DNA of 64,000 nucleotides from Candidatus Bathyarchaeota archaeon (GCA_963775895.1 CAVZKL010000011.1:50873-114872), one strand, 5' to 3'; positions 3,323 to 58,427 are shown, numbered from the stretch's first letter. Notes: generated by a model not told the origin, from the sequence alone. Numbers and translations are program-made.

Positions 3323-5236
3323 TTATGAATTGTGGGCGTCTTTGGGCGTTCTACCCCGATCGACTAGTTCCTTGCTGACCAGTGGGAATCTGTTCATGTC
3401 CTTGTGTGGGATGAACAGTGCTTCAGCGAATTCTCTGCTGAAGTCGGGGGTAGCTGCCAGCTCGAGGTATCGAATCTCTTTTGACAACTGCTCGGCGGTT
3501 TTTCTAGTTTCTTTCGAGACCAATGCCATCTTCGCGCCTTCCACCGCTGTGTTGCCCACGAATTCTATTCTTTTTGTGGGCACGTCAGGTACCAATCCTA
3601 GCAATTTTGCGTTTTGGGGATTGATGTAGTTGCCGAAGTTTCCAGCGATGAGAATCTTGGCGAGATTTTGTCTCTCAAGGTTTTTGGTTTTCATGAGCAG
3701 GGAACAGCCAGTGAATATTGCGGCCTTCGCGAGCTGTATCTCTCCGATATCCCTCTGCGTGATCACGATCTCTTTTCCGGTTGCGGTCTCACCTGCCCAA
3801 GCGACGATAAATTCTGTTTGATTGCCCACTTTCTTCAGTCGGCGTGTCTTCACGCGTGGATTGATTCTTCCTTTCGAATCTATTATTTCCAGCTTGAACA
3901 TTTCAGCGACGAGGTCGATCATTGCTGATCCGCAGAGACCCTTCGGTTTGGCATTTCCAATCGTTTTGAACCCAACTTCGAAGTCAGGCTCTAGGTGGAC
4001 GCTTTCTATGGCTCCGGTTTCCGCTTTCATCCCATGCTTGATTCTGGCTCCCTCAAAGGCAGGGCCAGACGCACATGAGCATGTTGCTATGTCTTTGAAG
4101 TTGCCAACGAAAACCTCGGTGTTCGTTCCTATATCTATTAGCATTGATGTCTTTTTCAATCCGTAAAAAGCGGTTGCTATGACATCTGCAACTGCGTCTG
4201 CTCCTACGAAGCCAGCGATAATCGGCAGAAAACTGCAGATACCGTTTGGGTTTATTTCAACCTGAAGCTCTTTTGCACGCACGTCCAAAGAGCTTTTTAT
4301 CGCGGGCACGTATGGCGACAAGGCTGTGTATTTCGGCTGAATTCCCAGACATAGATGGTGCATCGCCGTGTTGCCAACCAGAACGGCTTCATAGACTTGA
4401 TGCACGTCAACCTTGGCCTTTGCGCACGCTTGTTTTAGGACTTTGTTTATTCCTTCCACGACGGCTTTTCTTAGTGTCTGACGGTTGGTTTCGCTTTCCA
4501 TCGCGAAGGCGATCCGCGTTACTATGTCGGCCCCGTATGGCAGTTGAGGATTTTCGATGTAACCCGTGCTGAGAGTCTTTCCTGTTGTCAAGTCCACGAG
4601 GTGCCCAACCACTTTTGAGGTGCCAATGTCAACAGCAAATCCGAACAGCTTGCGTCCAGTGTCACCTGTTTCAACTGCGACGATTCTGTCACTGTCCCAA
4701 ACTGCGACCGTGACGTCCCAGCCTGCGTCGCGCAGAATGTCTGGCAACTTCCTCAAAATGTCACATTCTATGGTCAAGTTACTGAGCTTATGCGAGTCTG
4801 ACAAAGCTTCAAGGAGTCTCTCAAAGTCAGGCCTTACGTCGGACAGAGAAGGTTCATCCAGTTTAACGTGGAACTTTCTGACCAAGGGGTTCAGAGTTGT
4901 TTGTTTTTCCGTGCCGTGCGTCAAGATCCTTCGCTCGCCGATTCTGGTTTCTTTTGGAATCAGAACGGTGATGTCTTGCTTTGGAAACGTCTGACATGCC
5001 AGTCTGTACCCCGACCTCAATTCGCGGGGTGAAAAATGTTTGCTCTCAGCTTCTTCTGGTTCACCTATCGCATCCTTATTTTGCACGATGACCCTGCACT
5101 TTCCGCAAATTCCGTTTCCTCCGCATTCCGCCCTTAATGCGACACCACCTTCGATAGCTGCGTTTAGAACGTTCGTACCCTGCCTAACGTTTACTTTGCC
5201 TCCGACAGGACTAAAAGCAATAGTGATCGAAGCCAT
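3323..5236 (-). CDS. RACo/RamA-type ATP-dependent reductive activator of corrinoid proteins (2Fe-2S + ASKHA, DUF4445)
   Basis: CGGNGICGKC...RLAC ferredoxin; DIGT, GNTAM, DIGTNTE, GPAFEG, GLCGS, QLAKAAI. Confidence 0.92.
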   Translation of the reverse strand: MASITIAFSPVGGKVNVRQGTNVLNAAIEGGVALRAECGGNGICGKCRVIVQNKDAIGEPEEAESKHFSPRELRSGYRLACQTFPKQDITVLIPKETRIGERRILTHGTEKQTTLNPLVRKFHVKLDEPSLSDVRPDFERLLEALSDSHKLSNLTIECDILRKLPDILRDAGWDVTVAVWDSDRIVAVETGDTGRKLFGFAVDIGTSKVVGHLVDLTTGKTLSTGYIENPQLPYGADIVTRIAFAMESETNRQTLRKAVVEGINKVLKQACAKAKVDVHQVYEAVLVGNTAMHHLCLGIQPKYTALSPYVPAIKSSLDVRAKELQVEINPNGICSFLPIIAGFVGADAVADVIATAFYGLKKTSMLIDIGTNTEVFVGNFKDIATCSCASGPAFEGARIKHGMKAETGAIESVHLEPDFEVGFKTIGNAKPKGLCGSAMIDLVAEMFKLEIIDSKGRINPRVKTRRLKKVGNQTEFIVAWAGETATGKEIVITQRDIGEIQLAKAAIFTGCSLLMKTKNLERQNLAKILIAGNFGNYINPQNAKLLGLVPDVPTKRIEFVGNTAVEGAKMALVSKETRKTAEQLSKEIRYLELAATPDFSREFAEALFIPHKDMNRFPLVSKELVDRGRTPKDAHNS

Positions 5237-5530: not shown

Positions 5531-6637
5531 TTGACTCGCAAGAGCGTCGAGCTTGGCTGTGAAGGTATGAGTAAGGCTGTTCTTTACCAGGAACCAGGCG
5601 GACCGTCATATGAAGTCGATCTACCTCTGACATCTTTCGTAGATGTGGATGGCATAATGAAGGAACTTGGCTTGCCATCATACGTCGACTTAGACTATTT
5701 TCCGATGCGAAGCGCTATCGTGACAATCTGGGCTTGCCAGAAAGCACCCGAACTCCACAGACTGTATCCTACGGTGTATGAAAAAGAAGTTGACAAAAAA
5801 ACCATTCCAGCATTGCTTTTCGGCGGGGCCGCAATGAAGGTTTGCTGCGAACATTCTAATGGGAAAGGAGCCCTTTCGAGGTCAATAAAAGATGTCGACT
5901 TCATAGTTCCTAAGAATCAAGGTTCCAATTTCTCCAGACTGCTCTTGGGCATGAAGAATGCCTTCGGAACGGAGTTCACATATTTCAAGACCAAGGGAGA
6001 TGCACTCTTCATCGCCATGCGACAAGGTGAAAGATACAGAGTTAGAACAATAAACGGCCTCACCCCCAATGGACTTCCAACCGTCACGGTTCTCGACATT
6101 TTTTGCGATTCCATAGATTTGCGTCATAAAATAGAAGTGAAGGACAGCTTCGAGCACAGCCGGGAGAATTTATACACCATAGGCTTAGAATATCTCATAC
6201 TCTCGAAATCACAGTTCATTATGGACGCCTCCAAGAGCGATGTTGCCGCTTTGCTTGAAGAACGTGGACAAGGGTTTAGAATTCTGCCATGTCCGTGGTA
6301 TGCTTCGGACAGGATCGTCTTAGGTATGGAAGAGAAAGATATCAAAGATGTCTGCTCAATTTTCGTTGATCATGCTGTAGGGGAAGGAAAGGGAGAAATC
6401 AGCCAGAGTAAGATACGCAAAGTTCTGGACAAGAACAAGAAGCTTCTCTTGACGATTACTCTTAACCTTCAAAATATGGCGGCAAGAACTGAGCTGCTTG
6501 GGAAGTGGTTGGCAGCTGCGGATACTACGAAGGTTGTGGATAGGATTAATTCCCTCTTGGCAGGATTGCCTAAGGTTGATAAGAAATGGGACAAGCCTTG
6601 GTGGAACACCGCTGTAGAAACTCCACTAATCGGGTAG
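5531..6637 (+). CDS. Uncharacterised Pol-beta/DUF1814-like nucleotidyltransferase (paralog 1, N-terminally extended; start may be ATG 5567)
   Basis: LFGGAA...RSIKDVDF, LDIFCD, LSKSQ, KDIKD; similar to 10422..11327 and 58428..59171. Confidence 0.7.
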   Translation: MTRKSVELGCEGMSKAVLYQEPGGPSYEVDLPLTSFVDVDGIMKELGLPSYVDLDYFPMRSAIVTIWACQKAPELHRLYPTVYEKEVDKKTIPALLFGGAAMKVCCEHSNGKGALSRSIKDVDFIVPKNQGSNFSRLLLGMKNAFGTEFTYFKTKGDALFIAMRQGERYRVRTINGLTPNGLPTVTVLDIFCDSIDLRHKIEVKDSFEHSRENLYTIGLEYLILSKSQFIMDASKSDVAALLEERGQGFRILPCPWYASDRIVLGMEEKDIKDVCSIFVDHAVGEGKGEISQSKIRKVLDKNKKLLLTITLNLQNMAARTELLGKWLAAADTTKVVDRINSLLAGLPKVDKKWDKPWWNTAVETPLIG

Positions 6638-6641
6638 CTGC

Positions 6642-7528
6642 CTATTTCTTCACGAATTGTTTGACTGCCTCGTATGCTTCTCTTCTTGACACGCCTGCTC
6701 TTGATAGGGGCAGATCAAATGTCTCGTCTTTTGAGTGTAGTCTTAGGCAAGTTTCATGCTTCGGCGTAATGTAGATCGTTACGTCCGAGTAATTTGACCA
6801 TTTGCGTTCCTTCACTTTCGTTCCTTCCTTAACCTGGAAGCCTTTGCTGGTCAACGTCAAGGTGGTATGGAAGCGTGACTTGTAGATCTGGTAGGCGATT
6901 ATGAGGCAAAAGCTGGCCATGAACAAGACCGTAATGGGGTTGAGAGCTTGGGGCAATCCGGACAACCCGATCACCAATAACGCTATGAACCCGAAGAAGA
7001 GTACAATCGTGAAGCTCTTCAGATAACTGATGAGATCGAAGACCTCAAACTGCGCCTCGTTCAGCTTCAGGTGCTTAGCGAGACCTTTTCCCAGCACATT
7101 GTCGGAGAAAATCTTGTCTTTTGAAGCAAGACTGAAAGCTGCAATGCCTATGTTCTTTTCGGTGAGGCCCGTAACTGTCTCCTTCATTTTGCCCTCGAAA
7201 GGTTGGCTCTGAACCAGACCCAAAAACACCCAGTCGTCTTGCCGAATTTGCTCTTGAGCATAAGAATGATTTTCCTCAAAAACTTTGGATCTATATCTGG
7301 GTTCGTGTAAAGCAGAAAATGGATGTTATATTTGGGTGTTACGAAGACTGAGTATATTCTTGATAGAAAAAACCCTTTCTCTCGCAGGCTTCCTGTGGCA
7401 TATAAGGGAAAAACCGTGTCACCCATTGCATAGTCTCTGTGGATCTCGTCGAAGTTAGCCAGCCATCTTAGGCTACCCTTAGCTAACTGCTCCTCAACCA
7501 TGTCTTCAATGAAGTCTAGTTCAAGCAT
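6642..7528 (-). CDS. Hypothetical membrane protein (soluble N-domain, 2 TM helices, PH-like C-domain); frameshift near 7235
   Basis: ORFs 7184..7528 and 6642..7229 overlap and join as ...KSKFGK/DDWVFLGLV...; follows the APC gene on the same strand. Confidence 0.65.
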
Positions 7529-7597
7529 TCTGGATACACCGAGTTTTCAATGTCAATAGGCAATGTTAACAAATAAAAAGGGGGAGGATATTTAAGG

Positions 7598-9313
7598 CTA
7601 TTCTGGTGGAATGTTTAGGTAGAGCGTATGCATGTCGACGCCTTTTGTCGTGTTGCGGTACATGTGGTAGATATACAACAGTAGCCCAGCAAAGATGAAG
7701 ATGAAGAAGCCTGCCGCGCTTGCCACATCGCCAGAGCTAGCGCCAGATGTAAACAGTGTCCACACCCATGGATTTGCCTTCGCGATGGTGTACAGAGTGA
7801 AGCCTGATCCCAGTGTTGCCAAGAATCCAATGCCGACGACAGTGCCCACCGAATGTTTGACAGCGGCTCTATCATAGATTTCACGTCTCTCCAATGGCAG
7901 CAGCATGCAGGACACGCAGAACATTGTCAAGAACATCGCGTCGAACAGGTCCGTTCCGCCCACTCCAGCAAATCCCATATAGTAGTCTAGTCTAAGATAG
8001 CCTGCTTCGACTCCGCACGCAGGGACTGCGAAGAGCGCAGTTATTATTATTGCCCAAACTGGTGAGTGCCATCTTTCGCTGACGTAGGAAAACCTTTCAG
8101 GCATCATTCGGTCAAATGACATGGCAAAGAAGGTTCTTGAAGCGACAAGAAGGAACGGTGGAATGTCGTTTGCGACCCAGAGCACGCCGCCTATTGCGAC
8201 GACGTATGAAAGAATTCCAACGTTCATGCCCCTTGCGATCATCGAGGCTATTCCTGTGCTCCATGCGCTCTGGAAGTTAGGAATAGCTGCCCTTGCTGCG
8301 GCTATGGTCATAGTCGCTCCTGCCGGCAATGTTGAAGGTGGATAACTGAGCCAAGCGTAGGCTTGGAAAAAGCTCCATTGATGTCCCGAAGCATCTATGT
8401 ATTGACCTACGTTCATAGCAGATATCGCGGAGAGTGATGAAGCAGCAAGATAGGTTACCATCACTATTAGTCCTGAAGTCACCAGTATCATTGGAAGTCT
8501 CTTGTTTGCTTCTTTGACTTCGCCTGCAATAAACGTCGTGGCATACCATCCCATGTATGCCCAGAAGGCTCCTAAAACAGCGACCGTGAAAGCGTCGAAG
8601 AATCCAGACGGGTTCAGTGTCATTCCGGTTCGCACTGCCAGAGCAGTGATTTGGTCTGGCGTCGCTCCCATCACTTGCTGAACTCCAGTCACAACAGCAC
8701 TCGGGTTCAATGCGCCTCCAATCCACATTGCAAAGAATACGAATGTCAACGCTGCCGGAATGTAGAACAACGCTTCGAGCAGTCTACCGTACAGTTTTGT
8801 GCCTAAGAGACCGAGAATTGCGAATATCCACACTATTGCAATACCGCCCCAGAAGAGTTCAGTTGAGCCGAAGCTTATCCCGTTTGGTGCCATTGCTATT
8901 CCAAAGAAGATCGAGATTCCTTCGAAGACTGCGACGCCGATGAGTCCATAGGAGAACGCTTCTGCGAGGAACATCATCCATCCTGACATGTAGCCAACGA
9001 CAGGGTGAATGACCCTTGAAATGGTGACGTAGCCACCGCCAGATCTTGGCATAGCAGCCGTGACATAGCCAGCAGCGTAGCCTGTGATGAGCACTACGAG
9101 GCCACAAACTAGGAACGCCCAGAATATCGCGGGTAGACCGAGCGGCATCATATCTGTAGGCATTGGACTTGGTCCGGTGAACTGGAAAGCTCTTTTTTGC
9201 CAGCCTAAGCCGATGACGTGGGTCAGGATTATGATTACGCCCAAACTAAAGCCGATTTCTCTTACGAGACCAGTTGCTTCTCTTGTAAAAAGTCCGGGTT
9301 TTGTCGATGCCAT
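7598..9313 (-). CDS. APC-superfamily amino acid/polyamine permease (copy 1)
   Basis: About 12 hydrophobic segments; FTREATGLVRE, MPRSGGGY, AGEVK, SRTFFAMSFDR; ends IPPE. Confidence 0.92.
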   Translation of the reverse strand: MASTKPGLFTREATGLVREIGFSLGVIIILTHVIGLGWQKRAFQFTGPSPMPTDMMPLGLPAIFWAFLVCGLVVLITGYAAGYVTAAMPRSGGGYVTISRVIHPVVGYMSGWMMFLAEAFSYGLIGVAVFEGISIFFGIAMAPNGISFGSTELFWGGIAIVWIFAILGLLGTKLYGRLLEALFYIPAALTFVFFAMWIGGALNPSAVVTGVQQVMGATPDQITALAVRTGMTLNPSGFFDAFTVAVLGAFWAYMGWYATTFIAGEVKEANKRLPMILVTSGLIVMVTYLAASSLSAISAMNVGQYIDASGHQWSFFQAYAWLSYPPSTLPAGATMTIAAARAAIPNFQSAWSTGIASMIARGMNVGILSYVVAIGGVLWVANDIPPFLLVASRTFFAMSFDRMMPERFSYVSERWHSPVWAIIITALFAVPACGVEAGYLRLDYYMGFAGVGGTDLFDAMFLTMFCVSCMLLPLERREIYDRAAVKHSVGTVVGIGFLATLGSGFTLYTIAKANPWVWTLFTSGASSGDVASAAGFFIFIFAGLLLYIYHMYRNTTKGVDMHTLYLNIPPE

Positions 9314-9433
9314 CTAGCATTACACCCAGTCTCAAATGTCTTAGCGCTAACAAGATTTAAAACTTTGCATGACGGCACATCTCTTAAATAGCTGCAACGA
9401 CAAAAAAGCACAGGAATTAATGGTGAACATGCT

Positions 9434-10408
9434 TTGAGTTTTCTGTTTGGAAAGAAAAAGGAAGGCACGACCAAAATTCTCTTCGCGACGGACATGCATG
9501 GATCCGAAGGAACTTGGCGGAAGTTTCTGAACGCTTCAACCATACTTAAGGTCGATTATGCCATTTGCGGCGGAGACCTGACAGGAAAGATGATAGTTCC
9601 AATTGTCGAGGGAAAGGATGGGAAATATGTTTATTATCTGATGGGCAAGACGCATACCGTTGACTCAGGCGGTCTAGAGAAAGCTTACAAGGATGTCAGA
9701 GGGATAGGATACTACCCCTACAAGACTGATGAAAAAGAATACGTAGAGATGACTGACAATCCCAAGAGAGTGGATGAGGTTTTCCACGAAGTCATGCTTT
9801 CGACCATAAATCGGTGGCTTGACCTTATTCCCGAGAAAGTCCCACGCGAAACAAAAGTCGTTGTTTGTCCCGGAAATGATGATAGATTTGATATTGACCA
9901 ACTGATTGATAGTCACGAGAGCGTGATCAACGGTGAGAGCAAAGTAATACAGATAGATGATACACATGAGATGGTAAGCTGTGGATGGGTGAACCCCAGT
10001 CCATGGAAGACAGCTCGCGAAGAAGAAGAGGACAAGCTTGAGCAACGTCTGGAGAAATACGTTTCCCAGTTGAAAAACGTGAAAACAGCGATATTCAACT
10101 TTCATGCTCCACCCTTCGAATCGAAACTAGATCAAGCACCTCTTCTCGACAACGAATTGAACCCGATTGTCCAAGGTGGAGCCGTGGTCATGGTTCCGGT
10201 CGGCTCCAAAGCTGTGAGGAAAATGATTGAAAAGTACCAACCTTTCCTGGGTTTGCATGGGCATATACATGAATCTTCAGGGTCAATGAAAATTGGCAAA
10301 ACGCATTGCGTCAACCCTGGTAGCGAGTATGCTGAAGGGATCATAAGGGCCTTCTTGATCGAGTTTCAAGGTGAGAAAATAATCAAACTTCAGAGGATGG
10401 AAGGCTGA
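9434..10408 (+). CDS. Calcineurin-like metallophosphoesterase, Icc-related (copy 1)
   Basis: DMHG, GGD, GNDD, FHAPP, HGHIHE, NPGS. Confidence 0.9.
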   Translation: MSFLFGKKKEGTTKILFATDMHGSEGTWRKFLNASTILKVDYAICGGDLTGKMIVPIVEGKDGKYVYYLMGKTHTVDSGGLEKAYKDVRGIGYYPYKTDEKEYVEMTDNPKRVDEVFHEVMLSTINRWLDLIPEKVPRETKVVVCPGNDDRFDIDQLIDSHESVINGESKVIQIDDTHEMVSCGWVNPSPWKTAREEEEDKLEQRLEKYVSQLKNVKTAIFNFHAPPFESKLDQAPLLDNELNPIVQGGAVVMVPVGSKAVRKMIEKYQPFLGLHGHIHESSGSMKIGKTHCVNPGSEYAEGIIRAFLIEFQGEKIIKLQRMEG

Positions 10409-10421
10409 GAGATAGTTATCC

Positions 10422-11327
10422 ATGGCTTGGATGTGTGACAAAGAAATCAAAAGAGAACTGCCTGAAGAATGGAACGATATAGTTCCGACCAATGTTTTCA
10501 TCCAGGAATCCGAAAGACTAGTTGAACATGCCAAGGAGAAAGGTATAACTTTAAGGGTCGTGGGCGGTCTAGGCATAGCGATAAAATGCAAAGACTTCAG
10601 GGATTTTGGGGCAAGGCTTGGAAGAGTGGGAACAGGCACCACGCAACAGGAATACAGTGACATAGACTTGGTTTCGTATAGGAAGCACAGAGATCAGGTC
10701 AAGTCCTTGTTTAATGAGATGGGATATGGAAAGCGAAGAGCGACACTCTCATCTGCAGCATCTGAAAGGCAAATCTACTACCATCCGAAAGGCTGGTTCT
10801 GCGTGGACGTTTTCTTTGATAAGCTGATAGTTGCAAACCACCCAATAGACTTCGTTGGGCGCCTCGAGCTAGACTATCCGACGATTACAGCAACCGATGC
10901 TCTTCTTGAAAAAATTCAGATGTGGGAGGCCTTCAGCGCCAAGGACCTTAAGGATTGTCTGCTTCTGCTCAAGTCATGCCAAGTCAAAGAAGAAAAAGGC
11001 ATCGACGTGAATTACGTTGCGAAACTGCTTTCTTCAGATTGGGGGTTCTGGTTCACCGCGACGAGTAACCTCAAGAAAATTCAGAGATTTGTCTCTGAAC
11101 TGGAAAACTTTGGCGCTGAAGCGGGGATAGATCCTGGAAAGATTTCGAGTGACGATAGAAAAGAGATCGGGGGTAAGGTTGAAGAGCTTTTGAAAGCAAT
11201 TGAAGAAGAGCCGAAGTCTTTCGGGTGGAAAATGAGGGCTAAGGTAGGTACAAACAGGAGATGGTACAACCCTGTTGAAAGACCTGATACTGTTGGTGGC
11301 TTCGGAATTTGGGAAGCTATCAAATGA
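10422..11327 (+). CDS. Uncharacterised Pol-beta/DUF1814-like nucleotidyltransferase (paralog 2)
   Basis: VVGGLG...YSDIDL, VDVFFD, LEKIQ, KDLKD, DWGFW, KSFGWKMRAKVG...WYNPVE. Confidence 0.75.
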   Translation: MAWMCDKEIKRELPEEWNDIVPTNVFIQESERLVEHAKEKGITLRVVGGLGIAIKCKDFRDFGARLGRVGTGTTQQEYSDIDLVSYRKHRDQVKSLFNEMGYGKRRATLSSAASERQIYYHPKGWFCVDVFFDKLIVANHPIDFVGRLELDYPTITATDALLEKIQMWEAFSAKDLKDCLLLLKSCQVKEEKGIDVNYVAKLLSSDWGFWFTATSNLKKIQRFVSELENFGAEAGIDPGKISSDDRKEIGGKVEELLKAIEEEPKSFGWKMRAKVGTNRRWYNPVERPDTVGGFGIWEAIK

Positions 11328-12847: not shown

Positions 12848-13351
12848 ATGCTAGAATACGAATCTTTCTGCGTTTACGGGTTCAACACTGCGTATCCATC
12901 TACTTGGAAAGTTGAGTTTGATCCAAAGTCCGACCGGACGATGGGTAACGTTGCATTCAAGTCTCCCGAGAGGAACAATATTGTCTTAAGTTGGGGTCCT
13001 CTTGAAAGAGCCAAGAAAAAATACTCTTCCGTTGAGGAGCACGCCGAAGACTCCATTAAAGGAGTTAGGAAAAACCCGAGTGTAGCAAGAGTGGAGATCA
13101 TTCAAAAGAAAGAATTAGATATACCGCCACACAAGGCGATCTATTCCATTCTCAGAGTGGTCTTCGCATCCCCTAGCATGATACCGTTTAAGAAGGGAAA
13201 GGAAGATGTGTTGGAGATGCGATCAATCCATGTTCACTGCGAAGTTTCAGACCGCTACTACGTGATCTTTGGACAGATCGCCACGAGCAAATCTGAGGAA
13301 CATGGAGAAATTTTCAGCAAAATCACGGAATCCTTCAAATGCCACAGCTAA
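12848..13351 (+). CDS. Hypothetical protein (possibly PsbP/Mog1-like fold)
   Basis: 167-aa ORF with YPSTW near the N-terminus; fold call is tentative. Confidence 0.6.
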   Translation: MLEYESFCVYGFNTAYPSTWKVEFDPKSDRTMGNVAFKSPERNNIVLSWGPLERAKKKYSSVEEHAEDSIKGVRKNPSVARVEIIQKKELDIPPHKAIYSILRVVFASPSMIPFKKGKEDVLEMRSIHVHCEVSDRYYVIFGQIATSKSEEHGEIFSKITESFKCHS

Positions 13352-13851: not shown

Positions 13852-15535
13852 ATGCAGCGCAATCAAATCCTAGTCAAGAACGGGTCCGTGTTCGACCCGC
13901 TCAATGGAATAAATTGCGAACAGATGGACATAGCAATTAAGAATGACAAGATAGTTGAGGAAAAAGAACTCGATCCACAAGAAGTCTTTATTATAGACGC
14001 GAATGGAATGTCGGTTTTCCCAGGAGGCATTGATGTCCATTCTCACATGGTAGGTCCAGTGATTAGTAACAGTCTCCAAATAGCTCCGAGAGACGTTCAG
14101 CGAACATTGAATCTGGAACAGATAGGGCAAACTTACGCAAGAATGGGATACACCATGGCAGTTGAACCATCGGTACCACCTCTGTTCGCGAAGCAAGCGG
14201 TGATGGAGCTTGAGGACATACCCATTATAGACAAGGCCTTCTACGCCCTTTTGGGCAACAACTGGTTGATGATGGAATATGTGAAAGAGGGTCTCCTTGA
14301 CAAACTATCGACGTATGTTTCATGGTTGCTAAGGAACGTAAAAGGCTTTGCAGTCAAACTGGCTAACCCTGGCGGAGGTGAATTATGGAGCTGGCATGGC
14401 GACCTTCAAGACTTGGATGATGTGGTTCCTTATTTTAACGTAACACCCAGGGAAATCATTGAAACAACCATGAAAGCCAACGAGCGAGTAGGTTTTCCAC
14501 ATTCCGTCCATCTGCATTGCAACAACACTCTTCGCCCAGGAAATGTCTCAACCACGCTCGACTCGCTCAAGATGGCTGATGCGGTTGAAGTCGGCAACGC
14601 CGAACGGAAGCAAACCATGCACATAGCCCATGCACAATACAATTGCTACGGAGGTGAGAACTGGGATTCAATCCAGTCCAGAGCCGAGGAAGTGGCTAAG
14701 GCTATCAATTCAACTGATAAAATCACAGCGGACCTGGGGCAGATAACGTTGGCAAACTGTTTTTGTATCACCTGATGGTTGCTTGACAGAACGCGTAGCA
14801 AAACTCTTCAAGGAAACGACTGTGACAAATTGCGAATTTGAACTTGAAGACACGTCCGGAGGAGTTAAGCTCACGTACTCGAAGGATGATCCAATAAGTC
14901 CGTTATTGTGGGCTACGGGTCTTGAACTCGCGTTGCTAATTCATGATCCTTGGAAATTATGTCTAACGTCAAACAGTCCGAGCGGTGGACTTTTCAGCAG
15001 ATACCCAGAAATCATTTCTTGGTTGATGAACAGAGAGGAAAGAGAGAAAATCCTCAAGGAAAGCGAACCCCTTTTACAAAAGAAATCATCGATCGCATCG
15101 CTAGATAGAGAGTACGACCTTCACGATATATGCGTCATAACTAGGGCTGGCCCTGCGAAGGCCTTGGGGATTTCGAAGATGAAGGGGCACCTAGGAATCG
15201 GAGCAGATGCGGATATCTCCATTTATAATCTCGCCCAAGAGAACCTAACCGCTCAATCTATTGTTAGAGCATTCTCCAACGCAGCGTACACCATCAAGTC
15301 AGGGAACATTGTGGTCAAGAACGGACAAGTCCTTCAAGACCGCAAGGGGCAAATTCTTTGGGCCAAAACTAGTTGCGACGAAAGTTTGGAGAAGGAAGTC
15401 CTTAAAGATTTGGATCTGATATTCAAGAGATTCTATTCTGTGAACCTCGACAATTTTTTGGTGAGAGACGATTACGTTCGGGAAGGAAGAGCAATCACGC
15501 CGAGCAGCTTGCGTCCGTTTGAGATGAAAGTATGA
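13852..15535 (+). CDS. fwdA: Formylmethanofuran dehydrogenase subunit A-like amidohydrolase (frameshift in T run near 14760)
   Basis: IDVHSH, KLANPGG, HLHCNN, HAQYNCYGG, GLELAL, TRAGPAK, GADADI; removing one T joins both ORFs (NCFVSPDG). Confidence 0.88.
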
Positions 15536-47839: not shown

Positions 47840-49068
47840 TCACTGTTGAGTCTTAGAAAAATGCCCTCTTTCTCTGAGGATTTTCACAACTTCTCTGACA
47901 AATATCAGTTCCTCATTCGTAGGAATGACGTAGATTCGTACGCGCGAATTTGAACGACTTATGTCCATTTCCACTTCTCCGCCAATTGCCTGCATATTCT
48001 TTTGGGGATCAATTTGGATACCTAGGAATTCGAGTCCTTCACATATCTTTCCACGATAAAGGGAAGAGTTTTCGCCGACTCCCGCAGTGAAGACGACAGC
48101 GTCTATTCCTCCCATTGCCGCCGCATAAGCTCCTATGAACTTCTTCAATCTGTGGCATTCCACTTCAATGGCCAGTTTTGCTCTGTCATCTCCGTCTTCA
48201 GCCGCTTTAATCACATCACGTCTGTCGACGTATTTGCCTGTTATTCCCAAGAGTCCACTTTTCTTATTTAGGATGTCACTCATTTGGGTGTGCGTCAGAT
48301 TTTCTTTTTCCATGATGTGCAATGCCACACCCACGTCTAGATCGCCAGAGCGAGTTCCCATCACAGCTCCTTCCAGCGGAGTGAACCCCATGCTGTGATC
48401 ATAGGCTACGCCTTTCTTCACAGCGGTTACGCTGACACCATTCCCAATGTGAAGTGTGATGACGTTGATCTCCGATGGTGTTTTTCCAAGAAGTTCAGCA
48501 GCTCTCCTCGAGACGTAAGAGTGGGAACTGCCGTGGAAACCGTATTTTCGGACACCATACTTTTCGTACCATTGATACGGTACGGCGTAAGTGTAAGCGT
48601 GGGCAGGCATGGTTGAAAAGAAGGCTGTGTCAAAAATTGCCACCTGCGGTATATTTGGAACCAGATTCATTGCCGCTCTTATACCCTGAAGATTGGGTGG
48701 ATTATGCAGAGGAGCAAGCGTGCTGCATTCTTCGATCGCTCTTATGACGTTATCATCAATAAGCACAGAATCTGTAAACTTTGCTCCTCCGTGAACAACG
48801 CGATGACCTATTGCATTTATCTGGCGAGATTCTTTATCAAGTGGTCCTCTGAACCTATCAAAAGATCAAATATCGACTTGATTGCGATTTCATAAGTGGG
48901 ACAGTTGACGTCGAAGGTTACTTCCTTATCATCTACTCGTCGCCTGATAAGAGAATCACCCATTCCTACCCGTTCTACGATTCCTTTGCACATCTCGACC
49001 TCATCGGGCACACTCCATAAAGAGTATTTTACGGATGAGCTGCCACAGTTTAAGGTCATTATTTTCAT
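47840..49068 (-). CDS. ackA: Acetate kinase; frameshift near 48820
   Basis: LNCGSSSVKY, HRVVHGG, APLHNP, YGFHG, HIGNG, MGTRSG, FTAGVGEN, PTNEE. Confidence 0.95.
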
Positions 49069-49110: not shown

Positions 49111-49812
49111 CTAGGCAATTCCCAGATAAGCCTTTCTAATGTACTCGTTCTGCGATAGATCTTTTCCTTCCAGTGCGATTTTGCCGTTTTCCAGCACGTA
49201 TCCTCTTTCAGCTATTTTCAACGCTTGCAAAACGTTCTGCTCAACCAAGAGAATAGCGACTCCCTCATCGTGAAGTTTTCTCAGTATATCAAAAGTCTTG
49301 TCTATGATTATTGGCGCCAACCCCAAAGATGGCTCGTCCAACATTAGGAGCTTTGGTCCCGACATCAATGCCCGCGCTATTGATAGCATTTGCTGTTCCC
49401 CACCACTTAGAGTTCTCGCCAACTGATTCTTCCTCTCCTCTAGAACGGGGAACGTGTTGAAAACCCGTTTCAGGTTCTCATTCTTCTCCTTCCTGCATTT
49501 GGGAAGATAGGCCCCTACCAGAAGGTTTTCCATAACGTTCAAGTAAGGAAAGCTGGGTCTTCCTTCAGGCACCTGGGTTAAGCCTGACCCTACGATCTGA
49601 TGTGTCGGCAGTTTCTCTATTCTTTTCCCCAAAAACGTTATGGTTCCGGAGGTTGGTTTCAAAAGACCACTTATGGTGAGAAGCATCGTGCTCTTGCCGG
49701 CACCATTGGAACCGACGATAACTACAAGTTCACCCTCGTCCACGCTGATTGACACGTTGTGGAGGGCCTGAAGAACTCCATAGTGGACGTTTAAGCCGTC
49801 AAGCTCCAGCAT
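49111..49812 (-). CDS. livF: Branched-chain amino acid ABC transporter ATPase (LivF-like)
   Basis: GSNGAGKS, LSGGEQQM, LDEPSLGLAP. Confidence 0.92.
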   Translation of the reverse strand: MLELDGLNVHYGVLQALHNVSISVDEGELVVIVGSNGAGKSTMLLTISGLLKPTSGTITFLGKRIEKLPTHQIVGSGLTQVPEGRPSFPYLNVMENLLVGAYLPKCRKEKNENLKRVFNTFPVLEERKNQLARTLSGGEQQMLSIARALMSGPKLLMLDEPSLGLAPIIIDKTFDILRKLHDEGVAILLVEQNVLQALKIAERGYVLENGKIALEGKDLSQNEYIRKAYLGIA

Positions 49813-51482
49813 ATGCTCTCCCCATGTAGGCTTCGAGGACCTTCTTATCTTTGATTATCTCCGTTGGTTCTCCTTCAGCAATTTTCTCTCCATGGTCAAG
49901 CACGATGATTCGATCTGCCATGGTCATAACGAATTTCATCACATGTTCGACGATGCATATTGTGACACCTTTTTCATGGACTTCTCGCATCTTCTCGCAC
50001 ATCGTTTCTATCTCTACGGGGTTCAATCCAGCCGCGCACTCGTCTAGGAGCAATAGCTCTGGATCAGAAGCCAGAGATCTGGCCAATTCGAGTTTTCTTC
50101 TTTCTACCAGATTCAAGTTTCCAGCTGGTTGATTCTTCTTCTCCTCAAGACCTACAAAGTTCAAAAGTTCAATAGCTTTGTCCTTGACATCCTTAGGGTT
50201 TTCTCCCAACGATTTCAGCGCACCTGCGCGTTTGTCGCCTCGTGAAGATCCAAAAAATCCTGCAACAGTCACGTTCTCAAGGACTGTTAAGTTGCTGAAC
50301 GGTCTGACAATCTGATGTGTTTTGCTGATCCCCTTTCTGCAGATATCATGCGGCTGGAAACCTGCAATGTTTTCTCCCTTGAAGTCTATTGTTCCGGAGT
50401 CAGGGCGATAGACTCCCGTAAGAAGATTGAAGAAGGTGGTTTTTCCTGCTCCGTTGGGTCCTATCAGGCCTAGAGACTGTCCTTTGTCGATGTGAAGATC
50501 TAGTTCCTTAACGGCTACTAGACCGCCGAAAGACTTGGTCAGCTTGCTAACTTCCAGCATCATTAGATTTCTCAACCTTTGATGGAGACGCTTCATAAGT
50601 TTCAAGAGGAATCGCCTCAGTCTGCTTTCTGTTCCGAGAATGCCTGATGGTTCAAAAAGCATCACGAGTACTATTACGATACCATAGATTAGGAAGCGCG
50701 ATTCTATTGGTACGTATCCCCTTAAAATCTCTGGAACAAGTGTCGGAACAAAAGCGCCCACAAGCGGTCCGATTGTGGTTCCCATCCCTCCGAGAACGAC
50801 CATCGTGAACACCTCAACCGATCCTCCGAAATCAAAATAGGTTGGGTACGCAGATCTGAGGAAATAGGCGAAAAAACAGCCGCCCAGTCCGGCATAGAGA
50901 GAGCCTAAGACAAAAGCCAAAACCTTGAGTCGAAGGGTGTTGATTCCAGAAGACTCCGCAGCAACGCCGTCTTCTCTCACTGCTCTTAAGCCCAGTCCCA
51001 ACATTGACCTTGAGAATTTCAAATCAAAAAACAGCAAAACGATGGCGAACGCCAAAGTGAGAATTGAAAATGCGGCGGTGGAGGAAAAGGAGAAACCCAA
51101 AATATCTGGAGCATGAACTCCCATAATTCCATACATTCTGCCAAAATAGGGAGCGAAAGTGAATATTGCTACCATGACAAAATTGAAACCGATACTTCCC
51201 ACGACGAGATAGGGTCCAGCCAATTTCCCTCTCATAAAGAGCAAGCCCACTCCGAGTCCAACCAGCATTGCCGTGAGGCCAGATAGAGGCAACGTCACCG
51301 CGAACGGGAGATTATACGATGAAGATAGAATTGCCGTAGTGTACGCTCCGACAGAGACCAAGCCCATGTATCCGAGCATTGGCAGTCCCCCCGTACCCTA
51401 ACATGACATTCTGACCCATCGCAAATATCCAATAGATTGCGAAGTAGGCGAGGAGAGTGGTTATATAAGCCAGTTCAATCAT
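49799..51482 (-). CDS. LivM-like permease read in frame with LivG-like ATPase; frameshift in G run near 51390
   Basis: TM region with VVLGGMGT, then GPNGAGKTT and LLLDECAAG; may be a fusion or two genes (livG start near 50562). Confidence 0.85.
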
Positions 51483-56519: not shown

Positions 56520-58157
56520 TTAGGCTGGTGGGACCATCTTGAAGTTCAAGTCGAGGTCTATTGCTTTTCTTCTGAGTTGGTAACGTCTGATGTAGTAGTA
56601 GATTATGCAAATGACGACCCAAGACCACATGACGACCAAGACTGGGACAGATGCTAAGCCGAGTGCAGGGGTTACGCTGTAATAGTAAAGTTGTAGGATC
56701 AAGAACGGAATGGCTATTGCGGCGATGACAGATATCAGTGTTCGCCATTTTGCAGCTGGTGAGGCTTTCCATATTTCTCTTGTGCTCTTGCGGAACGGAA
56801 AGACTAACCCAGCTACCATCGTCATGAGGTATGAAAACACAATGACGTACATTGATACCAAGATGTAGGGAGATATGTAGCTGTAGACGAACAGCACGAT
56901 TTCGACGCCTACAAACAGTATCCAATATGAATTGATAGGCGTCCCCGGCCACCTCTTGCTTATTCCAGATATCCATGCAGGCGTAATTCTGTCAAACGAC
57001 TGTGATACTAGCACTCTTGTACAAGATAACCACACGTTGACCATCAATTGGTAGCAGTTGAAGATTATCCCGATGAATACGAGAATGATGACTATAGGAT
57101 TAGTAGTTAGCATTGCTGCAAATGAGGTGTAAAATGGGAAAACCGTAGGAATGATGAAATTCCCATTGAAGAAACCGGCGCTGATCGCGTGCTGAAATTG
57201 ATAACCCACAACGTTGACAGAGGCCCAACCCACCAAAGCCATGTATATGCCGCAGAAGAACAAGCTTGCTAAGAGCACCCAACTCATGCGCTTGAGGTTA
57301 TCAGCGCCCTTGATTTCGCCAGCATTCAACGTGACTAACATTGGAAACGACAAAGACCACCAAGCCAAGGGGAGAATTCCGAAGGTACCGAACAAATTCA
57401 TGGACGGATTCGTCGCAAAGCCTGAAGATGTCGCTGTGTCGATCGCCTGTTGATAAGCATTTGTCATTCCAGGGTTGAAATTAAGCATGTGACTGTTGAA
57501 TGCACTAATGAATGAAGCGTTGTTACTAGTCAGAAATATGGCGAGTATTGTTATCCAGCTTGCCACAAGTCCAAAGAATAGTAACCACTGAATCTTTAGA
57601 AAGCGTTTCAGGCCAGGAAGAAGCAAGAGGAAAACACTCACATTCAGAATAGTTCCGACCGCTATGATTCCGGTGTTAGTATTCAGCCAATTTGCCAAGT
57701 CAAGCAAGGCGGGAATTTTGAGTGAGGTGCTGAGGAAAAGGAACATCGGGCTGAGACCCATTTGGTTGAGCACAACGGCCCCCTCGGCTCCCCAGTAGAA
57801 ACCCACAAGAGGCCAAGCAACGAAGGTGACAGCAAAGCCGAGAGCAGGATGAATCAATCGGCTCTGCCACACGTATTCGCCGCCGCTGCGGGGCATGGAA
57901 GAGGTCAACATCGCGTAGACAATAATCATGGCTGAACCCCAGATGGTGGTTATGAGTATGCCAACTGGGACATTGGCTCCTGGCCACGCGAAGGGGCCTT
58001 GGATGTAGACCCACATGCCCGTCGTCATTACAACCATTGCCAGAACGCTGTACATGAAGACGTCCCAAGTGCTAAAAACCCTCACGAGTCCGGATGCAGT
58101 TCTAACGAAAGTCTTTGATGCTTCTGGACGCGTAGTTTCGTCCTTGTTTTTTGACAT
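56520..58157 (-). CDS. APC-superfamily amino acid permease (copy 2)
   Basis: FVRTASGLVR, MPRSGGEY, AGEIK, SFDR; ends VPPA. Confidence 0.92.
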   Translation of the reverse strand: MSKNKDETTRPEASKTFVRTASGLVRVFSTWDVFMYSVLAMVVMTTGMWVYIQGPFAWPGANVPVGILITTIWGSAMIIVYAMLTSSMPRSGGEYVWQSRLIHPALGFAVTFVAWPLVGFYWGAEGAVVLNQMGLSPMFLFLSTSLKIPALLDLANWLNTNTGIIAVGTILNVSVFLLLLPGLKRFLKIQWLLFFGLVASWITILAIFLTSNNASFISAFNSHMLNFNPGMTNAYQQAIDTATSSGFATNPSMNLFGTFGILPLAWWSLSFPMLVTLNAGEIKGADNLKRMSWVLLASLFFCGIYMALVGWASVNVVGYQFQHAISAGFFNGNFIIPTVFPFYTSFAAMLTTNPIVIILVFIGIIFNCYQLMVNVWLSCTRVLVSQSFDRITPAWISGISKRWPGTPINSYWILFVGVEIVLFVYSYISPYILVSMYVIVFSYLMTMVAGLVFPFRKSTREIWKASPAAKWRTLISVIAAIAIPFLILQLYYYSVTPALGLASVPVLVVMWSWVVICIIYYYIRRYQLRRKAIDLDLNFKMVPPA

Positions 58158-58427
58158 TTTGGTTTTTCCTTCCTTCTTTGACTATTTGTTTATTTGTCGA
58201 TTTGTTTAAAAGACTTGCCATGGTGATAGGTTTTGAAGGTTTCGCGTTGAACGAATATTCACGATTGCACATCAGCAATGTGATAATTCATGCATGGCCT
58301 TGATCTATAGGCTCGAGCAGTTGCTCCGATTTTGAATATTCCGAAACGTTTATTTTAATCAGCAATCAAGTTCATCTAACTTTCGTTATCCGAACCTGAA
58401 GGTGGAAACATAAAAAGCGAGACACTT

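What the first reader, a model, noticed from the sequence alone, without database searches (positions are those of the whole stretch)
5531..11327. Candidate undescribed module: APC permease + nucleotidyltransferase(s) + metallophosphoesterase (copy 1)
Seen: an APC permease (7598..9313, -) shares a 120-bp divergent spacer with a phosphoesterase-NTase pair (9434..11327, 13-nt gap); a second NTase paralog (5531..6637) flanks the other side. The same three families recur 47 kb away. Established: Pol-beta-fold NTases include protein nucleotidylases (GlnD/GlnE), nucleotide cyclases (class I adenylate cyclase, cGAS/DncV) and tRNA-modifying MenT/AbiEii toxins; Icc/CpdA-type phosphoesterases hydrolyse phosphodiesters. 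Inference: a writer/eraser pair (reversible nucleotidylation or second-messenger synthesis and breakdown) coupled to a transporter-sensor, or uptake and processing of a phospho/nucleotidyl-amino acid. I know no characterised system with this architecture.
Basis: partly seen in the sequence, partly recalled or inferred. Interest (0 to 1): 0.85.

Follow-up and report, generated by a model that had tools for sequence, protein, structure and literature searches.

The report
Permease with dedicated nucleotidyltransferase and phosphodiesterase
This archaeal genome carries two copies of a widespread but never studied gene set in which a special nutrient permease always travels with its own nucleotide-adding enzyme and a phosphodiesterase, probably a reversible nucleotide tag cycle working at the transporter.

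Summary
Copy 1 is five genes, not four. The two short frames between the first nucleotidyltransferase (NT0) and the permease are one 296-aa two-helix membrane protein, frameshifted in this window.

This five-gene cluster is kept in 42 of 52 related Bathyarchaeia loci. The core trio of NTase, metallophosphoesterase (MPE) and APC permease recurs in 59 of 80 loci from many archaeal and bacterial phyla, in shuffled order.

Natural NT-MPE and MPE-APC fusion proteins exist.

The NTase models as a Pol-beta fold. Its closest solved structures are ANT(2'')-Ia, LnuA and MenT1. The MPE is closest to aq_1956, TT1561 and MPPED2. Both keep their catalytic residues.

The linked permeases carry two motifs of their own: an N-terminal R-x-x-[S/T]-G-L-x-R and a C-terminal ...PP-x end.

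Function is unproven. My best reading (0.35) is a nucleotidylation switch on the permease. The close rival (0.30) is a transient nucleotidyl or phospho handle on imported amino-alcohol or methylamine nutrients.

No paper on the set was found. The scan has met the trio before on other DNA.

The parts
5531..6637 (+). NT0: divergent 368-aa paralogue of the module's nucleotidyltransferase. The true start may be the ATG 36 nt downstream.
   Evidence: No Pfam or NCBIfam hit. BLASTP to the copy-2 NTase gives 23% identity, E 6e-12. Its ortholog alignment A6 against the family alignment A3 gives hhalign probability 99.7, E 1.6e-25. In that comparison G98 G99, D121, D123, D189 and H199 align to the catalytic G48, D80, D82, D129 and H140 of NT1. 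It is present in 42 loci next to the cluster.
6642..7528 (-). orfAB: conserved about 296-aa protein with a soluble N-domain, two central hydrophobic helices and an about 80-aa C-domain. Here it is split into 7184..7528 and 6642..7229 by a missing base near 7237-7240.
   Evidence: It is a single 296-aa frame in L017 and L002 and in 45 of 48 loci. The DNA alignment shows a 1-nt gap in the window. Contigs of runs X2, X4 and X11 carry one extra base there; X1 agrees with the window. There is no Pfam hit. The Atlas holds only Bathyarchaeota hypothetical proteins as neighbours.
7598..9313 (-). APC1: 571-aa permease of a divergent APC subfamily. It has the N-terminal motif F-T-R-E-A-T14-G-L-V-R and the C-terminal tail ...GVDMHTLYLNIPPE.
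   Evidence: PF13520 72 bits, PF00324 48.9 bits. NCBIfam hits lie far under their cut-offs. The motifs are described.
9314..9433 (.). Divergent promoter spacer. It has two conserved TATA-like boxes (TTTAAAA 9356-9362, read on the minus strand for APC1; TTAAATA 9384-9390 for the MPE-NT1 operon) and GGTGA 9422-9426 ahead of the TTG start.
   Evidence: Sequence. In an alignment of 49 orthologous spacers, the length is 118-128 bp in 42 of 49 and both boxes are 90-99% conserved. The promoter role is inferred from archaeal promoter knowledge and was not measured.
9434..10408 (+). MPE1: 324-aa calcineurin-like metallophosphoesterase with all metal-binding motifs (D20-x-H22, G47-D48, G147-N-D-D150, H224, G276-H-I-H279).
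   Evidence: PF00149 26.2 bits, over the cut-off. Invariant columns in 57 sequences. AF2 model pLDDT 95.7. Closest solved chains are aq_1956 Z 24.5, TT1561 Z 23.1 and MPPED2 Z 20.6.
10422..11327 (+). NT1: 301-aa Pol-beta-fold nucleotidyltransferase with a helical C-terminal domain, 13 nt after MPE1.
   Evidence: PF14907 21.2 bits, under the 31.2 cut-off. D80, D82, H140, K164, W207, R272 and W281 are invariant in 139 sequences; G48 and D129 are at least 90% conserved. AF2 model pLDDT 91.9. Fold matches: ANT(2'')-Ia Z 11.3, MenT1 11.1, LnuA 9.6.
56520..58157 (-). APC2: 545-aa permease of the same subfamily (copy 2). N-terminal motif F-V-R-T-A-S-G-L-V-R; tail ...AIDLDLNFKMVPPA.
   Evidence: PF00324 30.3 bits and PF13520 29.8 bits. 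25% identity to APC1. Tail.
58428..59171 (+). NT2: 247-aa nucleotidyltransferase of the common short type (copy 2).
   Evidence: 38% identity to NT1, E 2e-60. PF14907 E 8.9e-4.
59181..60179 (+). MPE2: 332-aa metallophosphoesterase (copy 2), 9 nt after NT2.
   Evidence: 41% identity to MPE1, E 1e-89. It is aligned in A5.
62264..62667 (-). Remnant of a third NTase gene: the C-terminal half only, in two frames.
   Evidence: The family profile matches at window 62315..62697(-), E 1.3e-21 and 1.8e-15. The ORFs 62467..62667 and 62264..62491 carry the H-x-[IV]-D-F and DWGFYHT motifs.

Best explanation
The genes encode a self-contained unit that works at the cytoplasmic face of a specialised APC-type permease. 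The permease imports a small nitrogen compound.

The Pol-beta nucleotidyltransferase(s) and the metallophosphodiesterase dock on the permease. Together they run a cycle of adding and removing a nucleotide monophosphate. The most likely target is the invariant Ser/Thr in the permease's own N-terminal motif R-x-x-[S/T]-G-L-x-R, so that uptake is switched on or off.

Shown here: the gene linkage, the fusions, the folds, the intact catalytic residues and the permease-specific motifs.

Inferred: that the proteins form a complex, that the NTase transfers an NMP, that the Ser/Thr is the acceptor, and the direction of the effect on transport.
For: 1. The trio is kept together with shuffled order and orientation in 59 of 80 loci from many phyla. 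The five-gene form is kept in 42 of 52 Bathyarchaeia loci.

2. Natural fusion proteins exist:
- NT-MPE in 13 clusters of 572-581 aa. The in-frame junction was checked.
- MPE-APC in 3 clusters of 736-874 aa that carry PF13520. In P0345 a complete MPE is joined by about 16 residues to the permease's N-terminal motif.

3. Motifs on the linked permeases:
- 77 of 80 carry [hydrophobic]-x-R-x-x-[S/T]-G-[LVI]-x-[R/K] before the first helix. The hydroxyl residue is never replaced (S 44, T 33).
- 70 of 80 end in P-P-x.
- Two ordinary APC permeases of the same genome have neither motif.

4. NTase and MPE keep many invariant residues beyond the catalytic ones, although the neighbouring catabolic genes differ from locus to locus.

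5. The conserved Bathyarchaeia cluster contains no other enzyme that could use a nucleotidylated metabolite.

6. In Jordarchaeia genome G151, one MPE and two NTase genes lie on contigs other than four permeases of this subfamily. That fits enzymes acting on the permeases rather than on one substrate.

7. Pairwise distances of MPE and APC correlate at r 0.75 in 46 trios. Shared ancestry contributes to this figure.
Against: - No experiment or structure shows binding.
- The NTase's best fold matches are small-molecule O-nucleotidyltransferases (ANT(2'')-Ia Z 11.3, LnuA 9.6) and a tRNA-modifying toxin (MenT1 11.1). Known protein nucleotidylyltransferases such as GlnE do not appear in the 50 rows.
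- One writer and one eraser per permease, up to 14 NTase matches in one 1.9-Mb genome, is extravagant for a regulator. It is natural for substrate-specific enzymes.
- An NT1-like gene sits beside an EamA-type transporter instead of an APC in Jordarchaeia and one Bathyarchaeia locus.
- A basic N-terminal segment before helix 1 is common in APC permeases, so the motif may be structural.
- Choline-kinase-type genes in 8 of 80 loci show that small-molecule O-phosphorylation belongs to some of these pathways.
Confidence: 0.35

Rival explanations
1. Small-molecule handle. The permease imports an amino alcohol or methylated amine (choline-like). The NTase attaches an NMP, or acts on its phosphate ester, to give it an anionic handle and trap it. 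The variable neighbouring enzymes (MttB/corrinoid methyltransferases, DMGDH-like dehydrogenases, aminotransferases, alcohol dehydrogenases) act on the tagged compound. The MPE then removes the tag.
For: - Fold neighbours of the NTase are O-nucleotidyltransferases of amino-sugar antibiotics. The Atlas neighbours carry PF10706 Aminoglyc_resit, PF14907 and DUF2204.
- MPE neighbours are phosphodiesterases, including MPPED2, Rv0805 and GpdQ.
- Recurrent neighbours in 80 loci: choline/ethanolamine kinase 8, MttB 7, corrinoid protein 8, DAO-GCV_T dehydrogenases 8, class III aminotransferase 8, FGGY kinase 6.
- L090 has one operon MPE, 2-TM protein, APC, corrinoid protein, MttB.
- L130 has choline kinase, MttB, MPE, NT and APC.
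- Precedent: MthK phosphorylates choline so that the MttB-family MthB can demethylate it (PMC12155760; abstract and sections 10-11 read).
- The 1:1:1 paralogue expansion and the NT1-like gene next to an EamA transporter also fit.
Against: - NTP to NMP plus pyrophosphate per molecule is costly for energy-limited anaerobes.
- The conserved Bathyarchaeia cluster has no enzyme to use the tagged compound.
- Where a kinase is present the NTase is not replaced by it.
- This model does not explain the permease-specific cytoplasmic motifs or the MPE-APC fusion.
- No substrate is identified.
Confidence: 0.3
2. Local second messenger. The NTase makes a linear or cyclic oligonucleotide, the MPE degrades it like a class III cyclic-nucleotide phosphodiesterase, and the permease (or the two-helix protein, or the CBS proteins nearby) is the receptor.
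For: - By sequence profile the MPE's distant solved relatives include Rv0805/Icc (E 0.004). By fold they include MPPED2 (Z 20.6) and Rv0805 (Z 17.4).
- A four-CBS-domain protein follows the NTase in L159, and that ORF cluster occurs in 6 of 80 loci.
- One representative is a winged-helix-NTase fusion (P0222).
Against: - CD-NTases and oligoadenylate synthases rank low (Foldseek rank 9, TM 0.23; Z 6.1 or less).
- Several paralogous trios in one genome would cross-talk.
- No known receptor domain (SAVED, STING, PilZ and the like) was seen in the neighbourhoods examined.
Confidence: 0.1
3. Conflict system or resistance. The NTase is a MenT/AbiEii-like toxin or an antibiotic-inactivating enzyme, with the MPE as its antidote or partner and the permease as an exporter.
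For: - MenT1 Z 11.1, TglT 10.1 and MenT4 8.2.
- 4 of 139 family members touch PF08843 AbiEii weakly.
- Patchy distribution with many copies.
Against: - No PADLOC hit for any of the three NTases.
- No AbiEi/MenA-type partner gene was seen.
- NT1 orthologues are 60-80% identical across the class, unlike fast-evolving conflict genes.
- The constant partners are a 12-helix permease and catabolic operons.
Confidence: 0.05

Closest known systems
GlnD / PII (GlnK) / AmtB and GlnE / glutamine synthetase nucleotidylyl switches (recalled knowledge, not from a call)
   Same: A Pol-beta-type nucleotidyltransferase writes a UMP or AMP on a hydroxyl side chain, and a hydrolytic activity removes it. The outcome controls nitrogen uptake or assimilation. 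The genes often sit beside the transporter gene.
   Different: In those systems the modified protein is PII or glutamine synthetase, not the channel. The eraser is an HD domain or a second NTase domain, not a metallophosphoesterase. The transporter is Amt, not APC. No sequence similarity was found, and GlnE/GlnD chains were not among the 50 best fold matches.
ANT(2'')-Ia (AadB) and LnuA small-molecule O-nucleotidyltransferases
   Same: They are the best structural matches of NT1: Z 11.3 (155 residues aligned, rmsd 3.4) and Z 9.6 (137 residues, rmsd 3.0). They share the catalytic G-[GS] ... D-x-D ... D layout.
   Different: Identity is only 12-18%. NT1 has an extra conserved helical C-terminal part (residues about 207-285). 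The ANT and Lnu genes are mobile resistance genes without a permease or MPE partner.
MenT / AbiEii nucleotidyltransferase toxins
   Same: Comparable fold scores: MenT1 Z 11.1, TglT 10.1, MenT4 8.2.
   Different: No antitoxin-like neighbour, no PADLOC hit, and strong conservation and a metabolic context instead.
MthK/MthB/MthC/MthA choline:tetrahydrofolate methyltransferase system of Eubacterium limosum (PMC12155760)
   Same: It is a precedent for giving an amino alcohol an anionic phosphate handle before an MttB-family enzyme demethylates it. MttB, corrinoid protein and choline-kinase-type genes flank the trio in some loci.
   Different: That system has no Pol-beta NTase, no metallophosphoesterase and no APC permease. 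In this window no MttB or corrinoid protein gene lies next to either copy; only a RACo-type activase gene lies at 3323..5236.
aq_1956, TT1561 and MPPED1/2 class III metallophosphodiesterases
   Same: They are the closest solved structures to MPE1: Z 24.5, 23.1 and 20.6. The Drosophila orthologue of MPPED hydrolyses cAMP, cGMP and other phosphodiesters (PMC10547211, abstract seen in the listing).
   Different: Identity is 18-19%. MPE1 has G-N-D-D in motif III and an inserted lid of about 80 residues (54-135). aq_1956 and TT1561 are themselves uncharacterised.
Cation-chloride cotransporters (NKCC/KCC) controlled by N-terminal threonine phosphorylation and PP1 (recalled knowledge)
   Same: They are members of the APC superfamily whose activity is set by a writer and a metallophosphoesterase-type eraser acting on the cytoplasmic N-terminus.
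   Different: They are eukaryotic, the tag is phosphate rather than a nucleotide, the writer is a protein kinase, and the genes are not clustered.

Membership tests
Pol-beta nucleotidyltransferase superfamily | h-G-[GS] motif, [DE]-h-[DE]-h motif and a third carboxylate on the next strand | tested here: met
   For NT1, G48 is at least 90% conserved, D80 and D82 are invariant, and D129 is at least 90% conserved in 139 sequences. For NT0, G98 G99, D121, D123 and D189 are invariant in 30 sequences and align to these positions.
Pol-beta nucleotidyltransferase superfamily | Alpha-beta-alpha-beta-alpha-beta minimal NTase fold | tested here: met
   AF2 model pLDDT 91.9. Z 11.3, 11.1, 10.9, 10.1 and 9.6 to solved NTases. 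Foldseek top hits are all NTases.
Pfam PF14907 NTP_transf_5 | Score at or above the curated gathering cut-off (31.2 bits) | tested here: not met
   NT1 scores 21.2 bits, NT2 19.3 bits, and NT0 has no hit. 49 of 139 family members match at E 0.01 or better, best 3.1e-7. This is a related family, not a member by the curated rule.
AbiEii / MenT toxin (PF08843, DUF1814) | Profile match and an adjacent AbiEi/MenA-type antitoxin gene | tested here: not met
   4 of 139 members match weakly. No PADLOC hit. The neighbours are MPE and APC.
CD-NTase (cGAS/DncV-like) signalling enzymes | Close fold match to CD-NTases and an adjacent effector with a nucleotide-sensor domain | tested here: inconclusive
   CdnE is at Foldseek rank 9 with TM 0.23. 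A cGAS-like receptor scores Z 6.1. No sensor-effector gene was seen in the neighbourhoods scanned. Product chemistry was not testable.
Calcineurin-like metallophosphoesterase (PF00149) | Five metal-binding motifs: D-x-H, G-D, G-N-H/D-[DE], H, G-H-x-H | tested here: met
   D20, H22, D48, N148, D149, D150, H224, H277 and H279 are invariant or at least 90% conserved in 57 sequences. MPE1 scores 26.2 bits against a 21.5 cut-off. MPE2 alone scores 17 bits, under the cut-off, but aligns throughout.
APC superfamily permease (PF13520 / PF00324) | Profile score above the cut-off over about 12 helices | tested here: met
   APC1 scores 72 bits and APC2 29.8 and 30.3 bits. About 12 hydrophobic segments. 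No NCBIfam subfamily model comes near its cut-off, so this is an unnamed subfamily.
GlnD/GlnE-type protein nucleotidylyl switch | Covalent NMP on a protein hydroxyl, written by the NTase and removed by a partner activity | not testable with these tools
   Only indirect evidence is available: the invariant Ser/Thr motif and the fusions.
MthK/MthB-type activated choline demethylation | MttB-family methyltransferase, corrinoid protein and activating kinase encoded next to each other | tested here: not met
   None of these lies beside copy 1 or copy 2 in the window. They do flank the trio in 7-8 of 80 related loci.

The most novel reading that the evidence does not exclude
A new mode of transporter control, or of transport-coupled chemistry, common to archaea and bacteria. 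A dedicated nucleotidyltransferase and phosphodiesterase dock on conserved N- and C-terminal motifs of a special APC permease. They reversibly nucleotidylate an invariant Ser/Thr at its cytoplasmic mouth, gating the uptake of methylamines and amino alcohols. In Bathyarchaeia the unit has two writers and a two-helix accessory subunit.
Probability: 0.3. Interest if true: 0.85.

Novelty: categorically new. Interest (0 to 1): 0.72.

Why it matters
The NTase family has at least 2670 clusters at 50% identity, and none of the proteins met here carries a functional name. It always travels with a phosphodiesterase and a permease that also lack any studied member.

If the pair switches the permease by nucleotidylation, it would be a new kind of post-translational control of transport in prokaryotes. 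If it tags the solute, it would be a new route for activating amino alcohols and methylamines. These compounds feed acetogenesis and methanogenesis in wetlands and sediments, where Bathyarchaeia, Asgard archaea and Chloroflexota are abundant.

Either answer would give names to thousands of hypothetical proteins. It would also refine carbon and nitrogen budgets inferred from such genomes.

Tried and rejected
- **Complex prediction of NT1 with MPE1** (alignments A3 and A5) gave no verdict: score 0.01 against a mark of 0.32. It counts neither for nor against binding.

- **Sequence searches of solved structures** with NT1 and MPE1 alone gave only chance-level hits.

- **The search for related loci with the 139-row alignment** failed for lack of a conserved stretch. 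I repeated it with a 15-row alignment.

- **A search for long fused relatives of NT2** found none. Fusions appeared only when the L124 fusion itself was the query.

- **The apparent APC-MPE fusion in L123** is a frameshifted permease end, not a clean fusion. P0346 has a truncated MPE part.

- **The two-helix proteins** P0125 and P0276 show no BLASTP similarity to each other.

- **Rfam** found no RNA family in the window.

- **Flanking genes are not conserved partners.** The RACo, Na/Ca exchanger, PsbP-like and amidohydrolase genes that flank copy 1 do not recur in the 79 orthologous loci. GlpX recurs in only 4 of 79.

- **My translation of the L172 permease end** was out of frame and says nothing.

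- **RNA evidence is weak.** Contigs of an RNA library (X11) cover parts of NT0, orfAB, APC1 and MPE1 at depth 2, but DNA carry-over cannot be excluded, so expression is not shown.

- **Supplementary tables S4 and S5** of PMC12155760 (MthK/MthB co-localisation) could not be seen and might list loci that overlap this module.

Full report

Copy 1 consists of:
- an APC-type permease at 7598..9313(-) (PF13520, 72 bits);
- a 120-bp spacer;
- a calcineurin-like metallophosphoesterase, MPE1, at 9434..10408(+) (PF00149, 26.2 bits);
- a 13-nt gap;
- a nucleotidyltransferase-like gene, NT1, at 10422..11327(+) (PF14907 E 2.4e-4, under the Pfam cut-off).

The gene at 5531..6637(+), NT0, has no Pfam or NCBIfam hit. 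It is nevertheless a true, very divergent paralogue. BLASTP to the copy-2 NTase gives E 6e-12. A profile of 30 orthologues against the family profile gives hhalign probability 99.7 and E 1.6e-25, with the catalytic glycines and three aspartates aligned.

Copy 2 lies at 56520..60179: APC2(-), then NT2(+) and MPE2(+), so the enzyme order is reversed. Identities between the copies are 38% for the NTases, 41% for the MPEs and 25% for the permeases. These are old paralogues, not a recent duplication.

**A fifth gene, broken here.**
- In relatives they are one gene of about 296 aa (L017 and L002). It is a single open frame in 45 of 48 loci.
- The window lacks one base near 7237-7240.
- Assembled contigs of three other public runs (X2, X4 and the RNA library X11) carry an extra base there. 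The best holder X1 agrees with the window.
- The break is therefore either real in this strain or an error shared with the sample's own assembly. Sister populations have the intact gene.
- The protein has a soluble N-domain, two central hydrophobic helices and an about 80-residue C-domain (read from the translation). It has no Pfam hit and only Bathyarchaeota hypothetical proteins as Atlas neighbours.

**Conservation of the five-gene cluster.** NT1 has more than 2000 close relatives. Those that carry a name are all 'hypothetical protein' from Bathyarchaeia.

I fetched 79 genome loci with NT1 relatives:
- 66 are orthologues (at least 55% identity) with at least 1.1 kb upstream. Of these, 55 have MPE1 directly upstream.
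- 52 have at least 5 kb upstream. Of these, 42 hold NT0, both halves of the membrane protein, APC1 and MPE1 in the same order as here.
- The 11 without an adjacent MPE include rearranged loci such as L056. Four such genomes that I checked still carry MPE genes elsewhere.

The APC1|MPE1 spacer is 118-128 bp in 42 of 49 loci. It holds two A/T boxes conserved at 90-99%, at window 9356-9362 and 9384-9390. A GGTGA precedes the TTG start of MPE1. I read these as back-to-back archaeal promoters; this is an inference.

**The core trio is far wider.**
- A profile of the NTase family finds 2670 clusters at 50% identity with E 0.001 or better, 827 of them at 1e-30 or better. Most are 250-270 aa, like NT2.
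- Eighty loci of this short type come from Bathyarchaeia, several Asgard lineages, Thermococci, Theionarchaea, Nitrososphaerales, Chloroflexota, Actinomycetota, Caldiserica, Planctomycetota, Methylomirabilota and Thermodesulfobacteriota.
- Within 7 kb, 59 of the 80 hold both an MPE and an APC of the same subfamilies, 6 hold only the MPE, 4 hold only the APC, and 11 hold neither. Several of the 11 sit at contig ends.
- Gene order and orientation vary freely, which is the signature of functional rather than accidental linkage.
- In 46 compact trios the pairwise distances correlate: NT-MPE r 0.51, NT-APC 0.58, MPE-APC 0.75. Each is reached by 0 of 999 permutations. Shared ancestry inflates such figures.
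- Within the window's own class the family is accessory. It was found in 39 of 151 genomes sampled (28 of 94 of high quality), with 1 to 14 matches per genome.
- This genome has NT0, NT1, NT2 and a decayed remnant at about 62264..62667(-).

**Fusions.** One of the 80 loci (L124, Planctomycetota) encodes NTase and MPE as one 581-aa protein with a clean in-frame linker.

With that protein as query, the large protein collection returns:
- 13 clusters of 572-581 aa that span the junction;
- three clusters of 736-874 aa that carry APC Pfam domains together with the MPE.

P0345 is a complete MPE joined through about 16 residues to the N-terminus of a complete permease. P0349 is the same but cut at its end. 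P0346 has a truncated MPE part. These fusions argue that the three proteins work in physical contact on the cytoplasmic side of the membrane.

**The enzymes.**

NT1:
- It models with pLDDT 91.9.
- An alignment against about 48,000 solved chains ranks ANT(2'')-Ia first (Z 11.3), followed by MenT1 (11.1), a fungal NTase-like protein (10.9), TglT and JHP933 (10.1) and LnuA (9.6). Foldseek agrees.
- D80, D82, H140, K164, W207, R272 and W281 are invariant in 139 sequences. G48, D129, K174, D175, D178, D206, W269 and Y282 are nearly so.
- The enzyme should therefore be active, and its helical C-terminal part is under strong constraint.
- Nearest named families are PF14907, DUF2204 and PF10706.

MPE1:
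- It models with pLDDT 95.7.
- It is closest to the uncharacterised aq_1956 (Z 24.5) and TT1561 (23.1), then to the phosphodiesterase MPPED2 (20.6), Mre11, Rv0805 and GpdQ.
- All metal ligands are invariant, as are K30, K52, W191, R195 and E280.

No defence-system model matches the NTases.

**The permease has motifs of its own.** I aligned 80 permeases from these loci.
- 77 carry [hydrophobic]-x-R-x-x-[S/T]-G-[LVI]-x-[R/K] just before the first helix. The hydroxyl residue is always Ser (44) or Thr (33).
- 70 end exactly in P-P-x, preceded by G-[IV]-D and an aromatic residue at position -7 (Y 40, F 37).
- APC1 reads F-T-R-E-A-T-G-L-V-R and ...GVDMHTLYLNIPPE. APC2 reads F-V-R-T-A-S-G-L-V-R and ...AIDLDLNFKMVPPA.
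- The two ordinary APC permeases of this genome score much higher against PF13520 and have neither motif.
- In the MPE-APC fusion the MPE is tethered right next to the N-terminal motif.

**Context.** Apart from the trio, neighbours change from lineage to lineage but share a theme.

| Neighbour | Loci of 80 |
|---|---|
| small two-helix protein (archaea) | 13 |
| DeoR regulator | 9 |
| choline/ethanolamine kinase family | 8 |
| DAO-FAO_M-GCV_T dehydrogenases (dimethylglycine or sarcosine dehydrogenase type) | 8 |
| corrinoid protein | 8 |
| class III aminotransferase | 8 |
| luciferase-like oxygenase | 8 |
| MttB-family methyltransferase | 7 |
| nitroreductase | 7 |
| FGGY kinase | 6 |
| four-CBS protein | 6 |

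- L090 has one operon MPE, 2-TM protein, APC, corrinoid protein, MttB.
- L130 has choline kinase, MttB, MPE, NT and APC.
- In the window, copy 2 sits between an amidinotransferase/DDAH-like gene and a frameshifted class III aminotransferase. Copy 1 follows a RACo-type corrinoid activase. None of the copy-1 flanks recurs in the orthologous loci.
- Jiang et al. (PMC12155760; abstract and sections 10-11 read) showed that the MttB-family enzyme MthB demethylates phosphocholine, not choline, after activation by the kinase MthK. Tagging an amino alcohol before catabolism therefore has a precedent.

**Mechanism.** Two readings fit most data.

(a) *A switch on the permease.* The NTase writes an NMP on the invariant N-terminal Ser/Thr, the MPE erases it, and the C-terminal tail serves as a dock.
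- In favour:
  - the permease-specific motifs;
  - the MPE-APC and NT-MPE fusions;
  - the self-sufficiency of the Bathyarchaeia cluster, which has no enzyme to consume a tagged metabolite;
  - the constancy of NTase and MPE against changing catabolic neighbours;
  - Jordarchaeia, where one MPE and two NTase genes are unlinked from four permeases of this subfamily, at least one of which has the tail.
- Against:
  - the fold neighbours are small-molecule and tRNA NTases;
  - the 1:1:1 expansion;
  - the NT1-like gene beside an EamA transporter in 5 of 5 closely related Jordarchaeia/Freyarchaeota loci and in one Bathyarchaeia locus.

(b) *A transient nucleotidyl or phospho handle on the imported amine or amino alcohol.*
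- In favour: the fold neighbours, the kinase, MttB and dehydrogenase contexts, and the MthK precedent.
- Against: the energy cost and the unexplained permease motifs.

I put (a) at 0.35 and (b) at 0.30. A local nucleotide messenger gets 0.10 and a conflict or resistance system 0.05. The rest is left open.

**Novelty.**
- No Pfam, NCBIfam or PADLOC model names the NTases or the membrane protein.
- Full-text searches for the combination found nothing relevant.
- This scan has already met the trio on other DNA at least eight times, with the same open question.
- As far as a word search of the scan's notes shows, this report adds:
  - the five-gene Bathyarchaeia form with a second NTase and a two-helix protein;
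  - the two fusion types;
  - the two permease motifs;
  - the unlinked Jordarchaeia arrangement.

The kind of system has no characterised counterpart, so I rate it categorically new. The rating rests on architecture, not on a proven mechanism.

Noticed in passing
window 7237-7240 (within 6642..7528, minus strand): There is a one-base deletion relative to all relatives. It splits the conserved 296-aa membrane protein gene into two overlapping frames. Contigs of runs X2, X4 and X11 have the extra base; X1 does not.
   Followed up: yes
window 62264..62667 (-), and 62000..64000 in general: A decayed third NTase gene lies here: C-terminal half only, in two frames. It sits in a stretch whose G+C jumps to 55% at the very end of the contig. 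This may be an assembly join or foreign DNA.
   Followed up: partly
window 60670..62138 (+): The class III aminotransferase next to copy 2 is split into two overlapping frames (60670..61824 and 61785..62138), which suggests another frameshift.
   Followed up: no
window 13852..15535 (+): An Amidohydro_3 gene appears split. 13852..14775 matches profile positions 2-281 and 14783..15535 matches positions 334-472.
   Followed up: no
window 47840..48766 (-): The acetate kinase frame matches only profile positions 102-391 of 392, so its first about 100 residues are missing or lie in another frame.
   Followed up: no
window 49799..51379 (-): This branched-chain amino acid ABC system has its permease (BPD_transp_2) and ATPase (ABC_tran) fused in one 526-aa protein.
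   Followed up: no
window 9314..9433: The divergent spacer keeps its length (118-128 bp in 42 of 49 loci) and two TATA-like boxes. Between them is a conserved CTTTCCATAA-like stretch that could be a regulator site.
   Followed up: partly
L168 6310..6909 (-), Jordarchaeia: A 199-aa soluble protein weakly similar (22%) to the N-domain of the two-helix protein sits directly after the lone MPE gene. That N-domain may therefore be an independent partner of the MPE.
   Followed up: partly
P0222 (representative protein, 396 aa): A winged-helix (MarR/TrmB-like) DNA-binding domain is fused to the N-terminus of an NTase of this family.
   Followed up: no
window 12848..13351 (+), and L095, L105, L117, L122: A small PsbP-like protein lies 1.5 kb after copy 1 and recurs next to the trio in 4 of 80 other loci.
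   Followed up: no
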